A stretch of DNA of 32,000 bases from Haloferax volcanii DS2 (GCF_000025685.1 NC_013967.1:2640001-2672000), one strand, 5' to 3'; positions 6,860 to 30,348 are shown, counted from the stretch's first letter. Numbers and translations: made by a program. Notes: generated by a model not told the origin, from the letters alone.

Positions 6860-6934
6860 GCTCGGTTGGTGTAGTCCGGCCAATCATCTTGGCCTTTCGA
6901 GCCGAGGACCAGGGTTCAAATCCCTGACCGAGCA
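6860..6934 (+). tRNA. tRNA-Glu (anticodon UUC), no encoded CCA
   Basis: Hand-folded cloverleaf. Acceptor GCTCGGT/ACCGAGC, anticodon stem TTGGC/GCCGA, loop CTTTCGA (anticodon TTC), T arm CAGGG-TTCAAAT-CCCTG, discriminator A. Total 75 nt. Confidence 0.85.
6893..6934 (+). repeat. attL: 42-nt 3' part of tRNA-Glu, repeated exactly at 30200..30241
   Basis: CCTTTCGAGCCGAGGACCAGGGTTCAAATCCCTGACCGAGCA occurs at both positions in direct orientation. Confidence 0.85.
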
Positions 6935-7091
6935 TCTCAAGGCTTCTACCGCCTGTTTTTCCGTGGTCTAGGAGAAACAGCAAATGGTCCATTTAGGCCA
7001 AACACGTTCGTCGTACCGTTCCCGTAGCACCGTTGTTCCCCCTTGTAGACGGTCGTCTGTTGCCACAACAGGGGTTTGGAGGCGACAGTAG

Positions 7092-8246
7092 ATGCCGTCT
7101 AAATCCAATGAAGGGGCCAAGGAGGATACAGACGGTGAGACAGCCAAAGTCTGTAAAGCGCCCCTTGTGACTGAACCTGCCCGAAAACAGCTGAATCAAA
7201 GACAGGTTGTAGACTACAAAGAAGAAAGGCGGTCATTGTTAACGTGGCTTCGAGACATAGGAAAGAACCCGTCACGGGGGAAGGGCTATGCATCAGATAC
7301 AGTCTACAACCGTGCTTATCGCATCGATGCGTTCTACCGATGGGTTTGGGAATTTGAAGGGGCCTACACAACCACCCTGACGACGGACCATGCTGATGCC
7401 TACTGTCGTGAGTTACTTGCGGGTGACTACTCGGATAACCACCGTGCAAACACACAGAAAGCCCTCAAATCCCTATTCAAGTGGCGTCAATACCAACGTG
7501 GGGGTGACAAGTGGGAACCTACGATAACCCTCACAGGCGCACCACCCTCACGACAGCCTAAGGATTTCTTTGAAAAAGATGAACGAACAGCATTGCGGGA
7601 AGCCGCCTTAGAATATGGTACTGTTCCACACTACAACAGCCTTAGTGCTGATGAACGTCAGATATGGAAACGACACTTGGCCCAACGGTTCGGTATCCCC
7701 GTTGAAGGCGTCAATGCGGATACGTTTGAACGGGCAAATGGCTGGAAAATACCGTCCTTGGTACAAGCTACGTTAGACGGTGGGCTTCGACCGAAGGAAG
7801 TTGGTCGGGCAAGAGTGTCGTGGGTCGATACGGACAATAACGTCCTCCGTATTCCACCCGAGGACGCTACAAAGAGCAATGACTCTTGGACGGTCGCAAT
7901 CCGACCACAAACGTCACAAGCACTACAACGGTGGATTGGTGAACGAGAGTGCTATGACAAGTATAGTGGAACAGACAGATTATGGCTAACAAGAGAGTCA
8001 AATCCATACGGTTCTACCTCCCTGAATCGACTCTTAGAAAATCTGTGTGAACAAGCTGAAATTGATACCACACACAGGGACCTAAGTTGGTACTCAATTC
8101 GGCATAGTGTCGGTACACTCCTGACTAACGAACGTGACTTAGAAGCCGCAAGAGTACAATTGCGTCACCAGTCACGGACAACGACCATGAAGTATGATTC
8201 TGTATCGACTGACGACAGACGAGACGCATTAGATAGAATCGGATAG
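7092..8246 (+). CDS. tyrosine recombinase / phage-type integrase (int1)
   Basis: 384 aa. C-terminal catalytic pattern: GGLRPKEV (Arg), WYSIRHSVGT (R-H), LRHQSRTTTMKY (His..Tyr). Lies 158 nt downstream of the tRNA. Colinear paralog of 10635..11738, but the gene is clearly AT-richer than the rest of the window. Confidence 0.85.
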   Translation: MPSKSNEGAKEDTDGETAKVCKAPLVTEPARKQLNQRQVVDYKEERRSLLTWLRDIGKNPSRGKGYASDTVYNRAYRIDAFYRWVWEFEGAYTTTLTTDHADAYCRELLAGDYSDNHRANTQKALKSLFKWRQYQRGGDKWEPTITLTGAPPSRQPKDFFEKDERTALREAALEYGTVPHYNSLSADERQIWKRHLAQRFGIPVEGVNADTFERANGWKIPSLVQATLDGGLRPKEVGRARVSWVDTDNNVLRIPPEDATKSNDSWTVAIRPQTSQALQRWIGERECYDKYSGTDRLWLTRESNPYGSTSLNRLLENLCEQAEIDTTHRDLSWYSIRHSVGTLLTNERDLEAARVQLRHQSRTTTMKYDSVSTDDRRDALDRIG

Positions 8247-8255
8247 TCCTCACTC

Positions 8256-8266
8256 TTTTTTCTTTT
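8256..8266 (+). terminator. T-run (TTTTTTCTTTT) right after the int1 stop; archaeal-type terminator candidate
   Basis: Oligo-T tract 10 nt after the stop codon at 8244..8246. Confidence 0.4.
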
Positions 8267-8729
8267 ATAAGGACCAAGTACAGTAGATGTTAATGTAGAA
8301 AGCTTCCTTGGAGATTGAGATTGTGATAGATATGGTTCAACGGTTCGTCCTCGAAATACTTTCAGCATTTCTCGTCCTCACGTTGAACCGTTCCCGCAAA
8401 CAGCACAGTACAAATCACAACGTATCTGATAGGTGGAATTGTGACCGCCCTCGGGTGGGGTAGGGTTTTATGAGCCGATTTTGCTGTCTAGCGATATTGG
8501 GGAATTTATTGCCGCATTGTTTGTTAGGCGGATTGGGATTATTTAACATCGATTAGAAATCCGTCGAGTGGGGTTCTAGTGGTGACTACCCTTGGGGTTT
8601 TGTCTCCAAGATGGTGGTTAGCTACTCTAAATATAACCAGTACCAAATTTTGCAAACAAATTGAATAGCTATCAAAATTATTAAATAATTTGGAATCGGT
8701 GATAAACCTCCGCCGTATATTACGATTCT

Positions 8730-10127
8730 CAGTACCTCACAAAGCCGTTTAGTTAGAAGGTCTGCTTGCTGAAGATGTGTCCAACAACCAGCAAACAGAC
8801 GATGAAATCCACGAGGACCAGCTCCTTAACTTCCTCGTCAACTCTCTTGACGAGGAAGTTGCTCTCTCACTCGCTGAAAACGCTGAACTCGATGCTGAAG
8901 ACATCTACGAGGTCCTCGTCGGCGCCTGCGCCGACGGGACCTCGGTCTCTACACTCTGCAAGAGAAGCGAAGATGCACCTCACGAAAACTCGGTTCTCTA
9001 CCATCTCCGCACCAAGTTCGACCTCGAGACGCTCGAACAAATCGGGAACACGCTCCTCCAGAAAGACGTTCTCGACGTCCTTCCCCAGCAGGTGGAGGTC
9101 TGCGCAGACCTCCACCTGCGGCCCTACTACGGCGACGAAGACGATACAGACGGCCTGTATCACTCACAAGCGAAGCGTGGAACCACCGCGTTTCACGCGT
9201 ACGCGACACTGTACGCACGCGTGAAGAACAAACGCTACACGCTGGCGGTGCGCCGTCTCGAAGACGGCGACACCGCCAGCAGTGTCCTCGCAGAGTTCCT
9301 CGGTATTCTCGACGGCCTTGACCTCGGTGTCAAGGCCGTCTATCTTGACCGCGAATTCTACGACAGCAAGTGTTTGACGCTGCTTCAGGCGCACAACCAC
9401 GCCTACGTCATGCCGATCGTCCGCTGGGGACGGACGATCAAGCGAGAACTCTCAGAAGGGTGGAGTCGCGTGATTCAGCACAGTCTGACAGCGAAACTCG
9501 ACGGTCACAGCTGGACCGTCGAGTTTCCCGTCTACATCGACTGTACCTACCAGAACGGACGGTACGACGAACATGGCGTGGCGCGTCACGGCTACGCCGC
9601 TGACGCGCCGTTCATCGACTCACCACGGGACGCTCGATACCACTACGCGAAACGCTTCGGTATCGAGGCAAGCTATCGACTCTCCGAGCAAAGTATCGCG
9701 ACGACCTCGACACAAAATCCGGTCGTACGGCTGTTGTACGTCGTGGTGAGCCTGCTGTTACAGAACGTCTGGCGGTATTTGCACTGGGAGTACGTGGCGA
9801 CGCCCCGCCGTGGGGGGCGTCGCCTCTGGGAGTGGTCGTTCAAGGAGTTCATCAATATGGTCCGTCGAGCAGCGTGGACGGCCCTCGCGGTGCGTCGGGC
9901 CGTCCCCGCGAACCGACCACCAGACGACCGGTTCCACCGGTAACTCCCGACCGGGCTAGCCAACAGTGGGAGTGGCGACGCTGTCGCGTCGGCGGCAGCC
10001 GCCGCCGACAGCGACGGCTCTCCGCCGATCCGTCCATGATTCTGTCGTCGAGACCGCCAATGCAACCGCTCGGCCACAGAATTCAGGCTTCAGAGACAGC
10101 TAGGCGAGGATGCTTTGTGAGGTACTG
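8730..10127 (+). mobile_element. ISH3/IS4-superfamily insertion sequence, copy A (1398 bp)
   Basis: 16-bp terminal inverted repeats: CAGTACCTCACAAAGC (8730..8745) and GCTTTGTGAGGTACTG (10112..10127). One transposase ORF. A near-identical second copy lies at 11879..13279. Size and IR length resemble the ISH27/ISH51 group as I recall it. Confidence 0.85.
8777..9943 (+). CDS. DDE transposase of IS copy A
   Basis: 388 aa with candidate DDE residues (ADLHLRPYYGD, AVYLDREFYD, YAKRFGIEASYR = Y-x2-R-x3-E). The track start is GTG and the true start is uncertain. Confidence 0.85.
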   Translation: MSNNQQTDDEIHEDQLLNFLVNSLDEEVALSLAENAELDAEDIYEVLVGACADGTSVSTLCKRSEDAPHENSVLYHLRTKFDLETLEQIGNTLLQKDVLDVLPQQVEVCADLHLRPYYGDEDDTDGLYHSQAKRGTTAFHAYATLYARVKNKRYTLAVRRLEDGDTASSVLAEFLGILDGLDLGVKAVYLDREFYDSKCLTLLQAHNHAYVMPIVRWGRTIKRELSEGWSRVIQHSLTAKLDGHSWTVEFPVYIDCTYQNGRYDEHGVARHGYAADAPFIDSPRDARYHYAKRFGIEASYRLSEQSIATTSTQNPVVRLLYVVVSLLLQNVWRYLHWEYVATPRRGGRRLWEWSFKEFINMVRRAAWTALAVRRAVPANRPPDDRFHR

Positions 10128-29872: not shown

Positions 29873-29961
29873 GTGACGCTCTGCCGCGTCATCGATGAAA
29901 TACGTTCGTCGGGGACGTCGGTAGTTCGATTCTCCTCGATGGTGGGTTCAGCTTCGCCCGG

Positions 29962-29996
29962 ATCGTACTTCAGAGTATGATACTTTGAAGTACGAT
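29962..29996. repeat. 35-bp AT-rich near-perfect palindrome
   Basis: ATCGTACTTCAGAGTAT-G-ATACTTTGAAGTACGAT, with 16 of 17 arm positions complementary. It lies 90 nt upstream of the MutY-like start and about 200 nt inside attR. Confidence 0.7.
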
Positions 29997-30199
29997 GATC
30001 GTCTCGCGTCGCTACCGGGACCACTCGTTCGACGACATAGAGACAGTGATATCCGGTCGAATCGAACTTGGCCGGTGGACAAGCATCTGGTGATTTAAGT
30101 GGATAGCCCGCGTGTGTCCAGTCAGTAGCGGCCGAAAACCGCAGATGCGCGGAAGTGGGATGCACTCGAACGGGCCGAGCTCGCGGCGAACGAAGGAGC

Positions 30200-30241
30200 C
30201 CTTTCGAGCCGAGGACCAGGGTTCAAATCCCTGACCGAGCA
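30200..30241 (+). repeat. attR: exact 42-nt copy of the tRNA-Glu 3' part
   Basis: Identical to 6893..6934. Not preceded by the 5' half of a tRNA. Confidence 0.85.
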
Positions 30242-30321
30242 CTTCTCTGAGGAACAACGTGACGAAGAGAGAGCGGAGCGTAGGGGATTTGAAACAGGGA
30301 GCGAACAGAGCGAGCGACTGA

Positions 30322-30348
30322 GGTTCAAATCCCTGACCGAGCACTTCT
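30322..30348 (+). repeat. third, shorter att copy (27 nt identical to 30220..30246)
   Basis: GGTTCAAATCCCTGACCGAGCACTTCT. It covers the tRNA 3' end plus 5 nt of shared downstream sequence. The preceding ~12 nt (GAGCGAGCGACTGA) are a degraded match to the tRNA. Confidence 0.8.

What the first reader, a model, noticed from the sequence alone, without database searches (positions are those of the whole stretch)
6860..30348. Tandem array of same-family integrative elements stacked at one tRNA-Glu
The 3' 42 nt of tRNA-Glu (6893..6934) recur exactly at 30200..30241, and a 27-nt piece recurs at 30322..30348. Each att is followed at 158-228 nt by a paralogous integrase reading away from it: int1 at 7092, and an integrase 5' remnant at 30571. 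A degraded att lies 180 nt before int2. This fits repeated integration into the regenerated tRNA. The newest element (the AT-rich int1) lies next to the tRNA, and older ones are pushed rightward and decaying.
Basis: partly seen in the sequence, partly recalled or inferred. Interest (0 to 1): 0.65.

Follow-up and report, generated by a model that had tools for sequence, protein, structure and literature searches.

The report
Composite integrated island at tRNA-Glu
A 23.3-kb block of foreign DNA sits in the tRNA-Glu gene of Haloferax volcanii, made from at least two related integrating elements that were later broken up by insertion sequences; this is an ordinary kind of genomic island and its core features were already noted in 2011.

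Summary
The core observation holds. tRNA-Glu(UUC) lies at 6860-6934. Its last 42 nt recur exactly at 30200-30241, and a 22(27)-nt copy lies at 30322-30348. Haloferax gibbonsii has the empty site, so window 6935-30241 (23,307 bp) is an insertion.

int1 (7092-8246) and int2 (10635-11738) are intact and 53% identical. In 70 of 74 informative metagenome loci, this family sits about 210 nt after a tRNA-Glu gene or its 3' fragment. H. massiliensis has an int2-type gene alone next to the same tRNA. Two-element accretion is therefore the best reading.

Three details of the finding fail:
- The "degraded att" before int2 lies inside an ISH5 fragment (10134-10477) that abuts a complete ISH3. No inner att survives.
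- The 27-nt copy closes a roughly 100-nt unit that H. gibbonsii shares and that recurs after tRNA-Glu genes in other genera with no integrase nearby. It predates the island.
- The "integrase remnant" is only an int2-type upstream arm, a start codon and about 12 scrambled codons. Its own degenerate att is at 30449-30472.

Which element arrived first cannot be told. The island carries no virion genes and is not one of Halfvol1-4. Dyall-Smith et al. (2011) already noted this integrase, tRNA-Glu and the truncated copy. Interest is low; the recurring mini-unit is the only unusual item.

The parts
6860..6934 (+). tRNA-Glu(UUC) gene. Its last 42 nt (6893-6934) form the attL identity block.
   Evidence: ARAGORN; Rfam RF00005, 53.3 bits; exact 42-nt repeat.
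6935..7091 (+). Integrase-proximal arm of the int1 element. It begins TCTCAAGGCTTCTACCGCC, the family motif that follows the tRNA in other genomes.
   Evidence: Alignments with H. massiliensis, Haloarcula onubensis and metagenome junctions.
7092..8246 (+). int1, an intact 384-aa tyrosine integrase. It is AT-rich (GC3 0.46) and is probably HVO_2815A.
   Evidence: Pfam PF00589; composition; exact protein found on 218 contigs, the longest 2,847,757 bp; PMC3119063.
8247..8727 (.). AT-rich non-coding stub. This is all that remains of the int1 element beyond its integrase.
   Evidence: Composition; no ORFs and no homology to other loci.
8728..10133 (+). ISH3-family insertion sequence, copy a (transposase 8777-9943).
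   Evidence: NCBIfam NF033541, 1e-115; 95.5% identical to copy b.
10134..10477 (-). 3'-terminal fragment of an ISH5 (IS4-family) element, cut off by ISH3a. It occupies the place where an inner att would be expected.
   Evidence: 91% identity to Hbt. salinarum ISH5; the translation resembles the N-terminus of an IS4-family transposase.
10478..10634 (+). Truncated integrase-proximal arm of the int2 element. About 33-40 nt and the att are missing at its left.
   Evidence: 90% nt identity to the H. massiliensis tRNA-Glu/int junction region from 10495 on; alignments.
10635..11738 (+). int2, an intact 367-aa tyrosine integrase (GC3 0.87).
   Evidence: Pfam; 94% aa identity to the H. massiliensis integrase and 84% to the Haloarcula onubensis one, both directly after tRNA-Glu.
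11877..13285 (+). ISH3-family insertion sequence, copy b (transposase 11902-13095).
13665..14663 (-). IS110-family transposase gene.
   Evidence: Pfam PF01548 and PF02371.
15099..23394 (+). Cargo genes: two HTH proteins (DUF7343, DUF7344), an HNH nuclease (15642-16568), two unknown proteins, a 1174-aa UvrD-type helicase with a PD-(D/E)XK nuclease domain (18680-22204), and an unknown 316-aa protein (22444-23394). No virion genes.
   Evidence: Pfam, NCBIfam, PADLOC and PHROGs scans.
23428..23697 (+). Nine direct 23-nt repeats (CACCTCGTTTCCGCACTGGGGGT-like).
   Evidence: the repeat finder family D4; 8 motif matches against 0.44 expected.
23716..24333 (-). Small (205 aa) tyrosine recombinase, 45-49% identical to Int2 of phiCh1, phiH and ChaoS9.
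   Evidence: Pfam; tblastn against phages; in phiCh1 it sits beside ParA and RepH.
24678..26094 (-). IS4-family insertion sequence with 30-nt terminal inverted repeats (transposase 24702-26000).
   Evidence: Pfam PF01609; inverted repeat I7.
27268..29872 (-). Right-end module: a 191-aa protein, a 103-aa protein, an HVO_2833-like HTH protein (28164-29114) and an endonuclease III-like protein (29234-29872).
   Evidence: Pfam. The first three genes occur in the same order just before a partial att and a family integrase in metagenome contig L142.
30200..30241 (+). attR, the displaced 42-nt 3' part of tRNA-Glu, followed by the original downstream flank.
   Evidence: Exact repeat. In H. gibbonsii the sequence from 30242 onward directly follows the tRNA.
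30242..30348 (+). Older mini-unit: an 80-nt spacer holding an inverted T-arm piece (GGGATTTGAA, 30284-30293), then a 22-nt tRNA 3'-end copy (30322-30343, or 27 nt with its flank).
   Evidence: Shared with H. gibbonsii; same architecture after tRNA-Glu in several other genera.
30449..30610 (+). Oldest layer: a degenerate tRNA 3'-end copy (30449-30472), an int2-type arm with a deletion of about 85 nt, ATG at 30571 and about 12 scrambled integrase codons.
   Evidence: 34/42 identity to the H. massiliensis tRNA/arm junction and 80-81% identity to the int2 upstream region.

Best explanation
Window 6935-30241 is a 23,307-bp composite genomic island integrated into the chromosomal tRNA-Glu(UUC) gene of Haloferax volcanii.

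Mechanism. A tyrosine integrase recombines a 42-nt copy of the tRNA (anticodon loop to 3' end), carried by a circular element just upstream of its integrase gene, with the tRNA gene itself. This rebuilds an intact tRNA at the integrase end (attL). The displaced 42 nt are left at the far end (attR, 30200-30241).

Composition. The island holds the remains of two independently acquired members of one tRNA-Glu-specific integrase family:
- an AT-rich stub (int1 plus 480 nt) next to the tRNA;
- a larger int2 element that runs to attR and carries nuclease/helicase and plasmid-like cargo.

The junction. An inner att copy should lie between the two elements. ISH5 insertion into the int2 arm, followed by ISH3 insertion and deletion, removed it. 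Four further IS events mark the rest of the island.

Older layers. Right of attR lie older and much smaller remains of earlier events, partly shared with H. gibbonsii.

Shown: the insertion boundaries, the repeats, the integrase family and its target, and the IS debris.
Inferred: that two separate integrations took place, their order, and any present-day mobility.
For: - Empty site. H. gibbonsii aligns with window 1-6934 (94%) and then directly with 30200-30472 (84%).
- The 42-nt repeat is exact; 0 matches are expected by chance.
- int1 and int2 are intact and 53% identical. Their catalytic residues are R216, E219, K244, Y317, R320, H342 and Y351.
- Family target. In 80 metagenome loci, 52 have a complete tRNA-Glu and 18 have its 3' core on the same strand, 149-417 nt (median about 210) before the integrase start. 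One locus has tRNA-Gly and three have none.
- Each type occurs alone at a tRNA-Glu. An int2-type integrase (94% aa) sits 186 nt after the same tRNA-Glu in H. massiliensis, with no int1. An 84% relative does so in Haloarcula onubensis. An int1-type integrase (75%) sits beside tRNA-Glu(CUC) in Halobellus inordinatus, with a partial copy 8.8 kb away.
- The int2 upstream arm is homologous to those junction arms and is cut about 33-40 nt short by ISH5 and ISH3.
- The right-end gene trio lies next to the att of a family element in L142.
- The remnant at 30449-30610 is an attL-type junction of an int2-type element.
Against: - No att copy survives between int1 and int2, so the defining mark of a tandem array is missing.
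- No target-site duplications were found for either ISH3 copy, so the deletion history is reconstructed rather than read off the sequence.
- The int2 cargo shares nothing with the H. massiliensis element beyond the integrase gene.
- About 37 of 80 family loci carry a second integrase, so two integrases in one element is not unusual in itself.
- No excised circle or empty site was seen in H. volcanii assemblies. Contigs simply break at the repeat.
Confidence: 0.75

Rival explanations
1. One element with two integrases. The whole 23.3 kb arrived in a single integration event, either as one element carrying two integrase paralogues or as an array assembled in another host and transferred en bloc.
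For: No inner att is present. Only one pair of perfect 42-nt repeats exists. Many family elements carry a second integrase gene within about 3 kb.
Against: In those elements the partner is only 31-45% identical and is usually convergent and immediately adjacent. Here both genes are of the tRNA-proximal type. Each has its own junction-type arm. They contrast sharply in GC. IS debris lies exactly where the junction should be.
Confidence: 0.15
2. Composite transposon. The two direct ISH3 copies (8728-10133 and 11877-13285) carried int2 and the ISH5 fragment into a pre-existing int1 island.
For: The ISH3 copies are 95.5% identical, in direct orientation, and bracket int2 exactly. Neither has its own target duplication.
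Against: No target duplication is seen at the outer ends either. An int2-type gene sits at the very same tRNA-Glu in H. massiliensis, with 90% nt identity including the arm. The island's right-end genes are linked to an int2-family att in L142.
Confidence: 0.04
3. This rival concerns only the copies right of attR. The 22(27)-nt copy and its 80-nt spacer are not an integration scar. They are a conserved, possibly functional unit downstream of tRNA-Glu, either a structured trailer or a miniature integrase-less att-bounded element.
For: The same architecture appears after tRNA-Glu in H. gibbonsii, Haladaptatus, Halomicrococcus, a Haloarculaceae genome, two uncultured lineages and Haloarcula rara (22-nt core, then AAGCGGAGCG..GGGATTTGAA, then GAGCGA-rich sequence, then the 22-nt core again). 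In Haloarcula rara there are 4.1 tandem copies at 94% identity. None has an integrase nearby. The central block occurs nowhere else in 2 Mb of fetched loci. An 11-bp helix is predicted, with one compensatory change.
Against: The helix rests on nearly invariant sequence, and the single covariation tracks the tRNA's own T-arm variant. About half of the tRNA-Glu genes examined lack the unit. Independent decay of related elements could leave similar ends. There are no expression data.
Confidence: 0.3

Closest known systems
tRNA-gene-targeting genomic islands with tyrosine integrases (Williams 2002 sublocation scheme; Islander database, PMC4383910)
   Same: There is an intact tRNA at the integrase end and a displaced 3' fragment at the other end. 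The identity block runs from the anticodon loop to the 3' end. The island is absent from a related genome.
   Different: Nothing fundamental differs. This island is heavily degraded by five IS copies or fragments and holds two integrases of one family.
Tandem integration or accretion of mobile elements at one att site (archaeal cases cited in Badel et al. 2021, PMC8371274; CIME/ICE accretion in streptococci, from my own knowledge)
   Same: A regenerated att site is used repeatedly. Older units lose genes and remain as att-bounded remnants.
   Different: The inner att is gone here, so the array is inferred. No mobility of the whole or of its parts has been shown.
Integrases of tailed haloviruses of the Hafunaviridae (HSTV-2, HCTV-6/15, HRTV-2/7/11; HF2, as noted in PMC3119063)
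   Same: They are about 50% identical to int2 over the full length. They share the attP layout: a partial tRNA copy, then the CCGCCGTCTTGCGATTT arm motif, then int.
   Different: The viral partial tRNA is not tRNA-Glu. The island carries no virion genes. No relatives were found in IMG/VR contigs.
Haloferax volcanii proviruses Halfvol1-4 (PMC12091111)
   Same: They occur in the same host. Halfvol1-3 follow the same principle, with a tRNA at one end and a partial copy at the other.
   Different: Those elements use tRNA-Pro, tRNA-Ala and tRNA-Arg with 14-nt repeats, and Halfvol1-3 were shown to excise. The tRNA-Glu island is not among them and has 42-nt repeats.
The HVO_2815A locus as noted by Dyall-Smith et al. 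2011 (PMC3119063)
   Same: This is the same locus: an integrase next to tRNA-Glu in H. volcanii, with a truncated tRNA copy 5-48 kb downstream.
   Different: That paper gives one sentence. It does not mention int2, the IS debris, the older layers or the empty site in H. gibbonsii.

Membership tests
Tyrosine recombinase superfamily | Catalytic set: Arg I, Glu/Asp I, Lys, His II, Arg II, His/Trp III, Tyr | tested here: met
   R216, E219, K244, R320, H342 and Y351 are invariant or nearly so in 20 family members, including int1 and int2. His II is replaced by Tyr (Y317) (alignment to XerA 5HXY; Pfam PF00589).
tRNA-integrated genomic island | An intact tRNA gene at one end and a displaced fragment of the same tRNA, as a direct repeat, at the other end | tested here: met
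   6893-6934 = 30200-30241, 42/42 identical.
tRNA-integrated genomic island | The segment is absent from a related genome, with the flanks joined at the tRNA | tested here: met
   H. gibbonsii locus L005.
tRNA-integrated genomic island | An integrase gene inside the island, next to one end, from a family linked to that target | tested here: met
   int1 starts 158 nt from the tRNA. 70 of 74 informative family loci have a tRNA-Glu-derived att upstream.
Tandem array of integrative elements | An att copy at each internal junction | tested here: not met
   The window's highest scan scores are all at the tRNA or at 30181-30331, with no hit near 10400-10480. Region 10400-10455 scores 6 against a background mean of 5.6. 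That sequence is ISH5.
Tandem array of integrative elements | Each unit has its own integrase and integrase-proximal arm, and each type occurs alone at the same target elsewhere | tested here: met
Tandem array of integrative elements | Units excise separately or together | not testable with these tools
   Public H. volcanii contigs break at the repeats. This needs PCR or long reads.
SNJ2-type integrases (PMC5861418) | Gly/Ala in place of Glu/Asp I, and Ala/Val in place of His/Trp III | tested here: not met
   E219 and H342 are conserved.
pNOB8-type integrases (as summarised in PMC5861418) | R...YxxR...Y tetrad, with Arg at the His/Trp III position | tested here: inconclusive
   The tetrad is met (Y317-x-x-R320), but position III is His, not Arg. 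No pNOB8 sequence was compared directly.
Provirus | Genes for virion proteins or packaging | tested here: not met
   Pfam, PHROGs and PADLOC scans of the cargo found none. There were only HNH, helicase-nuclease and HTH hits.

The most novel reading that the evidence does not exclude
The roughly 100-130-nt unit between a tRNA-Glu gene and a 22-nt copy of its 3' end (window 30220-30343) may be more than an inert scar. It could be a conserved, integrase-less miniature element or a structured motif, maintained and sometimes amplified in tandem (4 copies in Haloarcula rara) downstream of tRNA-Glu genes across several haloarchaeal families. Family integrases, or unequal exchange between polyploid chromosome copies, might mobilise or expand it.
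Probability: 0.25. Interest if true: 0.55.

Novelty: already known. Interest (0 to 1): 0.22.

Why it matters
The practical value is modest.
- It maps a fifth integrated-element region in the model archaeon H. volcanii, beside Halfvol1-4, with exact borders and an empty-site reference.
- It carries two apparently intact integrases. This could matter for strain engineering and for interpreting genome instability.
- It documents an integrase family with very strong tRNA-Glu specificity, which could serve as a site-specific integration tool for haloarchaea.
- It shows how IS elements erase the junctions that island-finding programs rely on.
- The recurring mini-unit after tRNA-Glu genes is the only item that might lead somewhere new.

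Tried and rejected
- 'Degraded att' before int2: rejected, because it is ISH5 sequence.
- Target-site duplications for ISH3a and ISH3b, and for the pair as a composite transposon: none found with any plausible end definition.
- Degenerate att copies at 30410-30435 and 30449-30472, and the inverted piece at 30284-30293: each scores only at the 95-99th percentile of background. I accept the 30449-30472 copy only because it continues into the int2-type arm. The 30410-30435 copy stays doubtful.
- Idea that the mini-unit's right half is the distal arm of int1/int2-type elements: rejected. Seven family attP-like contigs lack the inverted T-arm piece.
- IMG/VR scans with int2, with a family profile, with the 22-nt core and with a mini-unit pattern all found nothing.
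- ARAGORN's tRNA-Gly(CCC) at 22648-22729(-): not supported by Rfam, and it lies inside an ORF.
- Search for H. volcanii contigs that join the tRNA directly to the right flank (evidence of excision): contigs only break at the repeat.
- PADLOC gave only weak helicase-domain (GajB-like) and HTH hits, so no defence system could be named.
- Literature searches by HVO locus tags found only the 2011 mention.
- The single genome-contig scan returned one Haloferax species, so the wider Haloferax pan-genome could not be surveyed.

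
Full report
ORGANISM AND OBSERVATION

The window is a Haloferax chromosome. Its left 6.9 kb (sdh genes, astE-like, rimK-like, fadB-like) is 94% identical to H. gibbonsii and H. massiliensis. The int1 protein occurs unchanged on 218 public contigs, the longest of 2,847,757 bp. From my own knowledge that is the size of the H. volcanii DS2 chromosome. A 2011 paper names the integrase next to tRNA-Glu in H. volcanii as HVO_2815A.

ARAGORN and Rfam both find tRNA-Glu(UUC) at 6860-6934. Its last 42 nt, starting 3 nt before the anticodon, recur exactly at 30200-30241. 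The last 22 nt recur again at 30322-30343, and none are expected by chance. It therefore includes 5 nt of the flank of the second copy, not of the tRNA.

THE EMPTY SITE

In H. gibbonsii ATCC 33959 the same fadB-tRNA-Glu locus continues, straight after the tRNA, with the sequence found at window 30242-30472 (84% identity). Window 6935-30241 (23,307 bp) is therefore an insertion bounded by the 42-nt repeats. The intact tRNA is followed by element DNA. The distal copy is followed by the original flank, as expected for integrase-mediated insertion.

The same comparison shows that three features already exist in the uninterrupted H. gibbonsii site: the 22(27)-nt copy at 30322, a doubtful degenerate copy near 30410-30435, and a better one at 30449-30472. 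These predate the island.

THE INTEGRASES AND THEIR FAMILY

- int1 (7092-8246, 384 aa, GC3 0.46) and int2 (10635-11738, 367 aa, GC3 0.87) are full-length Phage_integrase proteins, 53% identical.
- In an alignment of 20 relatives the catalytic Arg, Glu, Lys, Arg, His and Tyr are conserved. His II is replaced by Tyr.
- Each gene has closer relatives elsewhere than in the window. int1 reaches 82% in a metagenome and 75% in Halobellus inordinatus. int2 reaches 94% in H. massiliensis and 84% in Haloarcula onubensis. They are independent acquisitions, not a local duplication.
- The family is strongly tied to tRNA-Glu. Among 80 metagenome loci, 52 have a complete tRNA-Glu (10 UUC, 42 CUC) on the same strand, ending 149-417 nt (median about 210) before the integrase start. 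A further 18 have only its 3' core; seven of these have enough upstream sequence to show that they are true partial copies. One locus has tRNA-Gly, three have nothing, and six are too short to judge.
- Tailed haloviruses of the Hafunaviridae encode integrases about 50% identical to int2. These are preceded by a partial tRNA and the same CCGCCGTCTTGCGATTT arm motif.
- No relatives were found in IMG/VR.

ONE ELEMENT OR TWO

In H. massiliensis an int2-type gene lies 186 nt after the same tRNA-Glu, with no int1. Its gene and upstream arm are 90% identical in DNA to window 10495-11739. Haloarcula onubensis shows the same layout. int1-type genes lie next to tRNA-Glu(CUC) in Halobellus, with a partial copy 8.8 kb away.

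In the window, the int2 arm can be followed leftwards to about 10478, some 33-40 nt short of where the tRNA end should be. There it meets a 344-nt terminal fragment of ISH5 (10134-10477, 91% identical to Halobacterium copies). The ISH5 fragment in turn abuts a complete ISH3 copy (8728-10133). Left of the ISH3 are only 480 nt of AT-rich non-coding DNA and int1.

The inner att is therefore not degraded but absent.

The simplest history has three steps:
1. Two family elements sat side by side.
2. ISH5 inserted into the int2 arm.
3. An ISH3-associated deletion removed most of ISH5, the inner att and the rest of the int1 element.

I could not find target duplications to confirm these steps.

The right end of the island (27268-29114) carries three genes that lie in the same order just before a partial att and a family integrase in contig L142. 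This ties attR to an int2-family element. A second ISH3 copy, an IS110-type gene and an IS4-type element interrupt the rest. The cargo has an HNH nuclease, a large helicase-nuclease, HTH proteins and a plasmid-like patch, but no virion genes.

THE REMNANT

Window 30445-30495 matches the H. massiliensis junction, meaning the tRNA T-arm and acceptor end plus the first 18 nt of the arm, at 34/42 positions. An approximately 85-nt deletion follows, between two copies of the CCGCCGTCTTGCG motif. Then come 100 nt that are 80-81% identical to the int2 upstream region, ATGAG at 30571, and about 12 scrambled codons. No other integrase coding remains.

This is the left end of an older int2-type element, now displaced to the right. 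Its att is the degenerate copy at 30449-30472, not the 27-nt copy.

THE 27-NT COPY AND THE MINI-UNIT

The stretch from the 22-nt core at 30220 to the core at 30322 is a 102-nt unit with an inverted T-arm piece (GGGATTTGAA, 30284-30293) in the middle. Units of the same design lie directly after tRNA-Glu genes in the following genomes, none of which has a family integrase within 10 kb:
- H. gibbonsii (99 nt);
- Haladaptatus (170 nt);
- Halomicrococcus (117 nt);
- a Haloarculaceae genome (104 nt);
- two uncultured lineages (115 and 132 nt);
- Haloarcula rara (4.1 tandem copies of 122 nt at 94% identity).

The central block occurs only inside such units in 2 Mb of fetched DNA. RNAalifold pairs it with the T-arm of the second core: 11 bp with one compensatory change. 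Full-size family elements do not carry this piece in their distal arm.

I regard the unit as most likely the residue of a different, T-loop-crossing element type. Its conserved design leaves room for a miniature element or a structured motif.

COMPARISON WITH WHAT IS KNOWN

tRNA-targeted islands and tandem integration are well described in bacteria and archaea. This locus was mentioned in one sentence in 2011. It is not one of the four named H. volcanii proviruses.

The finding is therefore an ordinary, largely known feature. The tandem reading is reasonable but rests on inference, because the inner junction has been erased. The order of arrival cannot be decided. An incoming element could use either junction, and the low GC of int1 may simply reflect a low-GC donor such as Haloquadratum (69% relative; PMC3119063).

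Noticed in passing
window 30220-30343; L005 12117-12237; L006 12142-12333; L009 12143-12279; L021 12277-12415; L025 12681-12806; L027 14512-15010 (- strand); L091 19581-19734: A conserved unit of about 100-130 nt lies directly after tRNA-Glu genes in several haloarchaeal families. Its layout is: 22-nt tRNA 3' end, short hairpin-prone stretch, AAGCGGAGCG..GGGATTTGAA (inverted T-arm piece), GAGCGA-rich stretch, then a second 22-nt copy. No integrase is nearby. Haloarcula rara has 4.1 tandem copies.
   Followed up: partly
window 23428-24333: Nine direct 23-nt repeats (CACCTCGTTTCCGCACTGGGGGT-like) fill the gap between an unknown 316-aa gene and a 205-aa tyrosine recombinase. The recombinase is 45-49% identical to Int2 of the phiCh1, phiH and ChaoS9 viruses, where it sits beside ParA and RepH. 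AT-rich DNA follows, split by an IS4 element. This may be a plasmid-type replication or resolution module.
   Followed up: partly
L091 9740-9845 and 19445-19570 (also L092): An int1-type element (73% aa) whose direct repeat is about 125 nt, made of the tRNA-Glu(CUC) promoter region plus the 5' half of the tRNA up to the anticodon loop. The truncated copy lies next to the integrase and the complete tRNA lies at the far end. This is the mirror image of the usual arrangement.
   Followed up: partly
L022 12760-13797 (-); L094 6283-7299 (-); about 27 of the 80 loci L094-L173: Many int2-type elements carry a second integrase gene, 31-45% identical, immediately downstream and convergent. About 10 more loci have one in the same orientation. 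The window lacks it; ISH3b sits 138 nt after int2.
   Followed up: no
window 22648-22729 (-): ARAGORN calls an 82-nt tRNA-Gly(CCC) inside the ORF 22444-23394. Rfam finds no tRNA there, so it is probably a false positive.
   Followed up: yes
window 8728-10477; L093 1-2127: ISH3-type and ISH5 elements are nested in both genomes. In Halobacterium salinarum pHSAL1, ISH5 interrupts an ISH3-type element. In the window, a complete ISH3 abuts the last 344 nt of ISH5. Neither ISH3 copy in the window shows a target duplication.
   Followed up: partly
L154 4714-4811 and 7299-7396: A 97-nt direct repeat (partial tRNA-Glu copy plus integrase-proximal arm) occurs 2,585 nt apart, around a family integrase, and runs to the contig end. 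It is either a tandem pair of like elements with an intact inner att, or an assembly wrap-around.
   Followed up: partly
L094-L173: About 40 of the 80 metagenome contigs with this integrase end 200-400 nt upstream of the gene, at or inside the tRNA-Glu. This suggests that assemblies break there because populations differ at this site.
   Followed up: no
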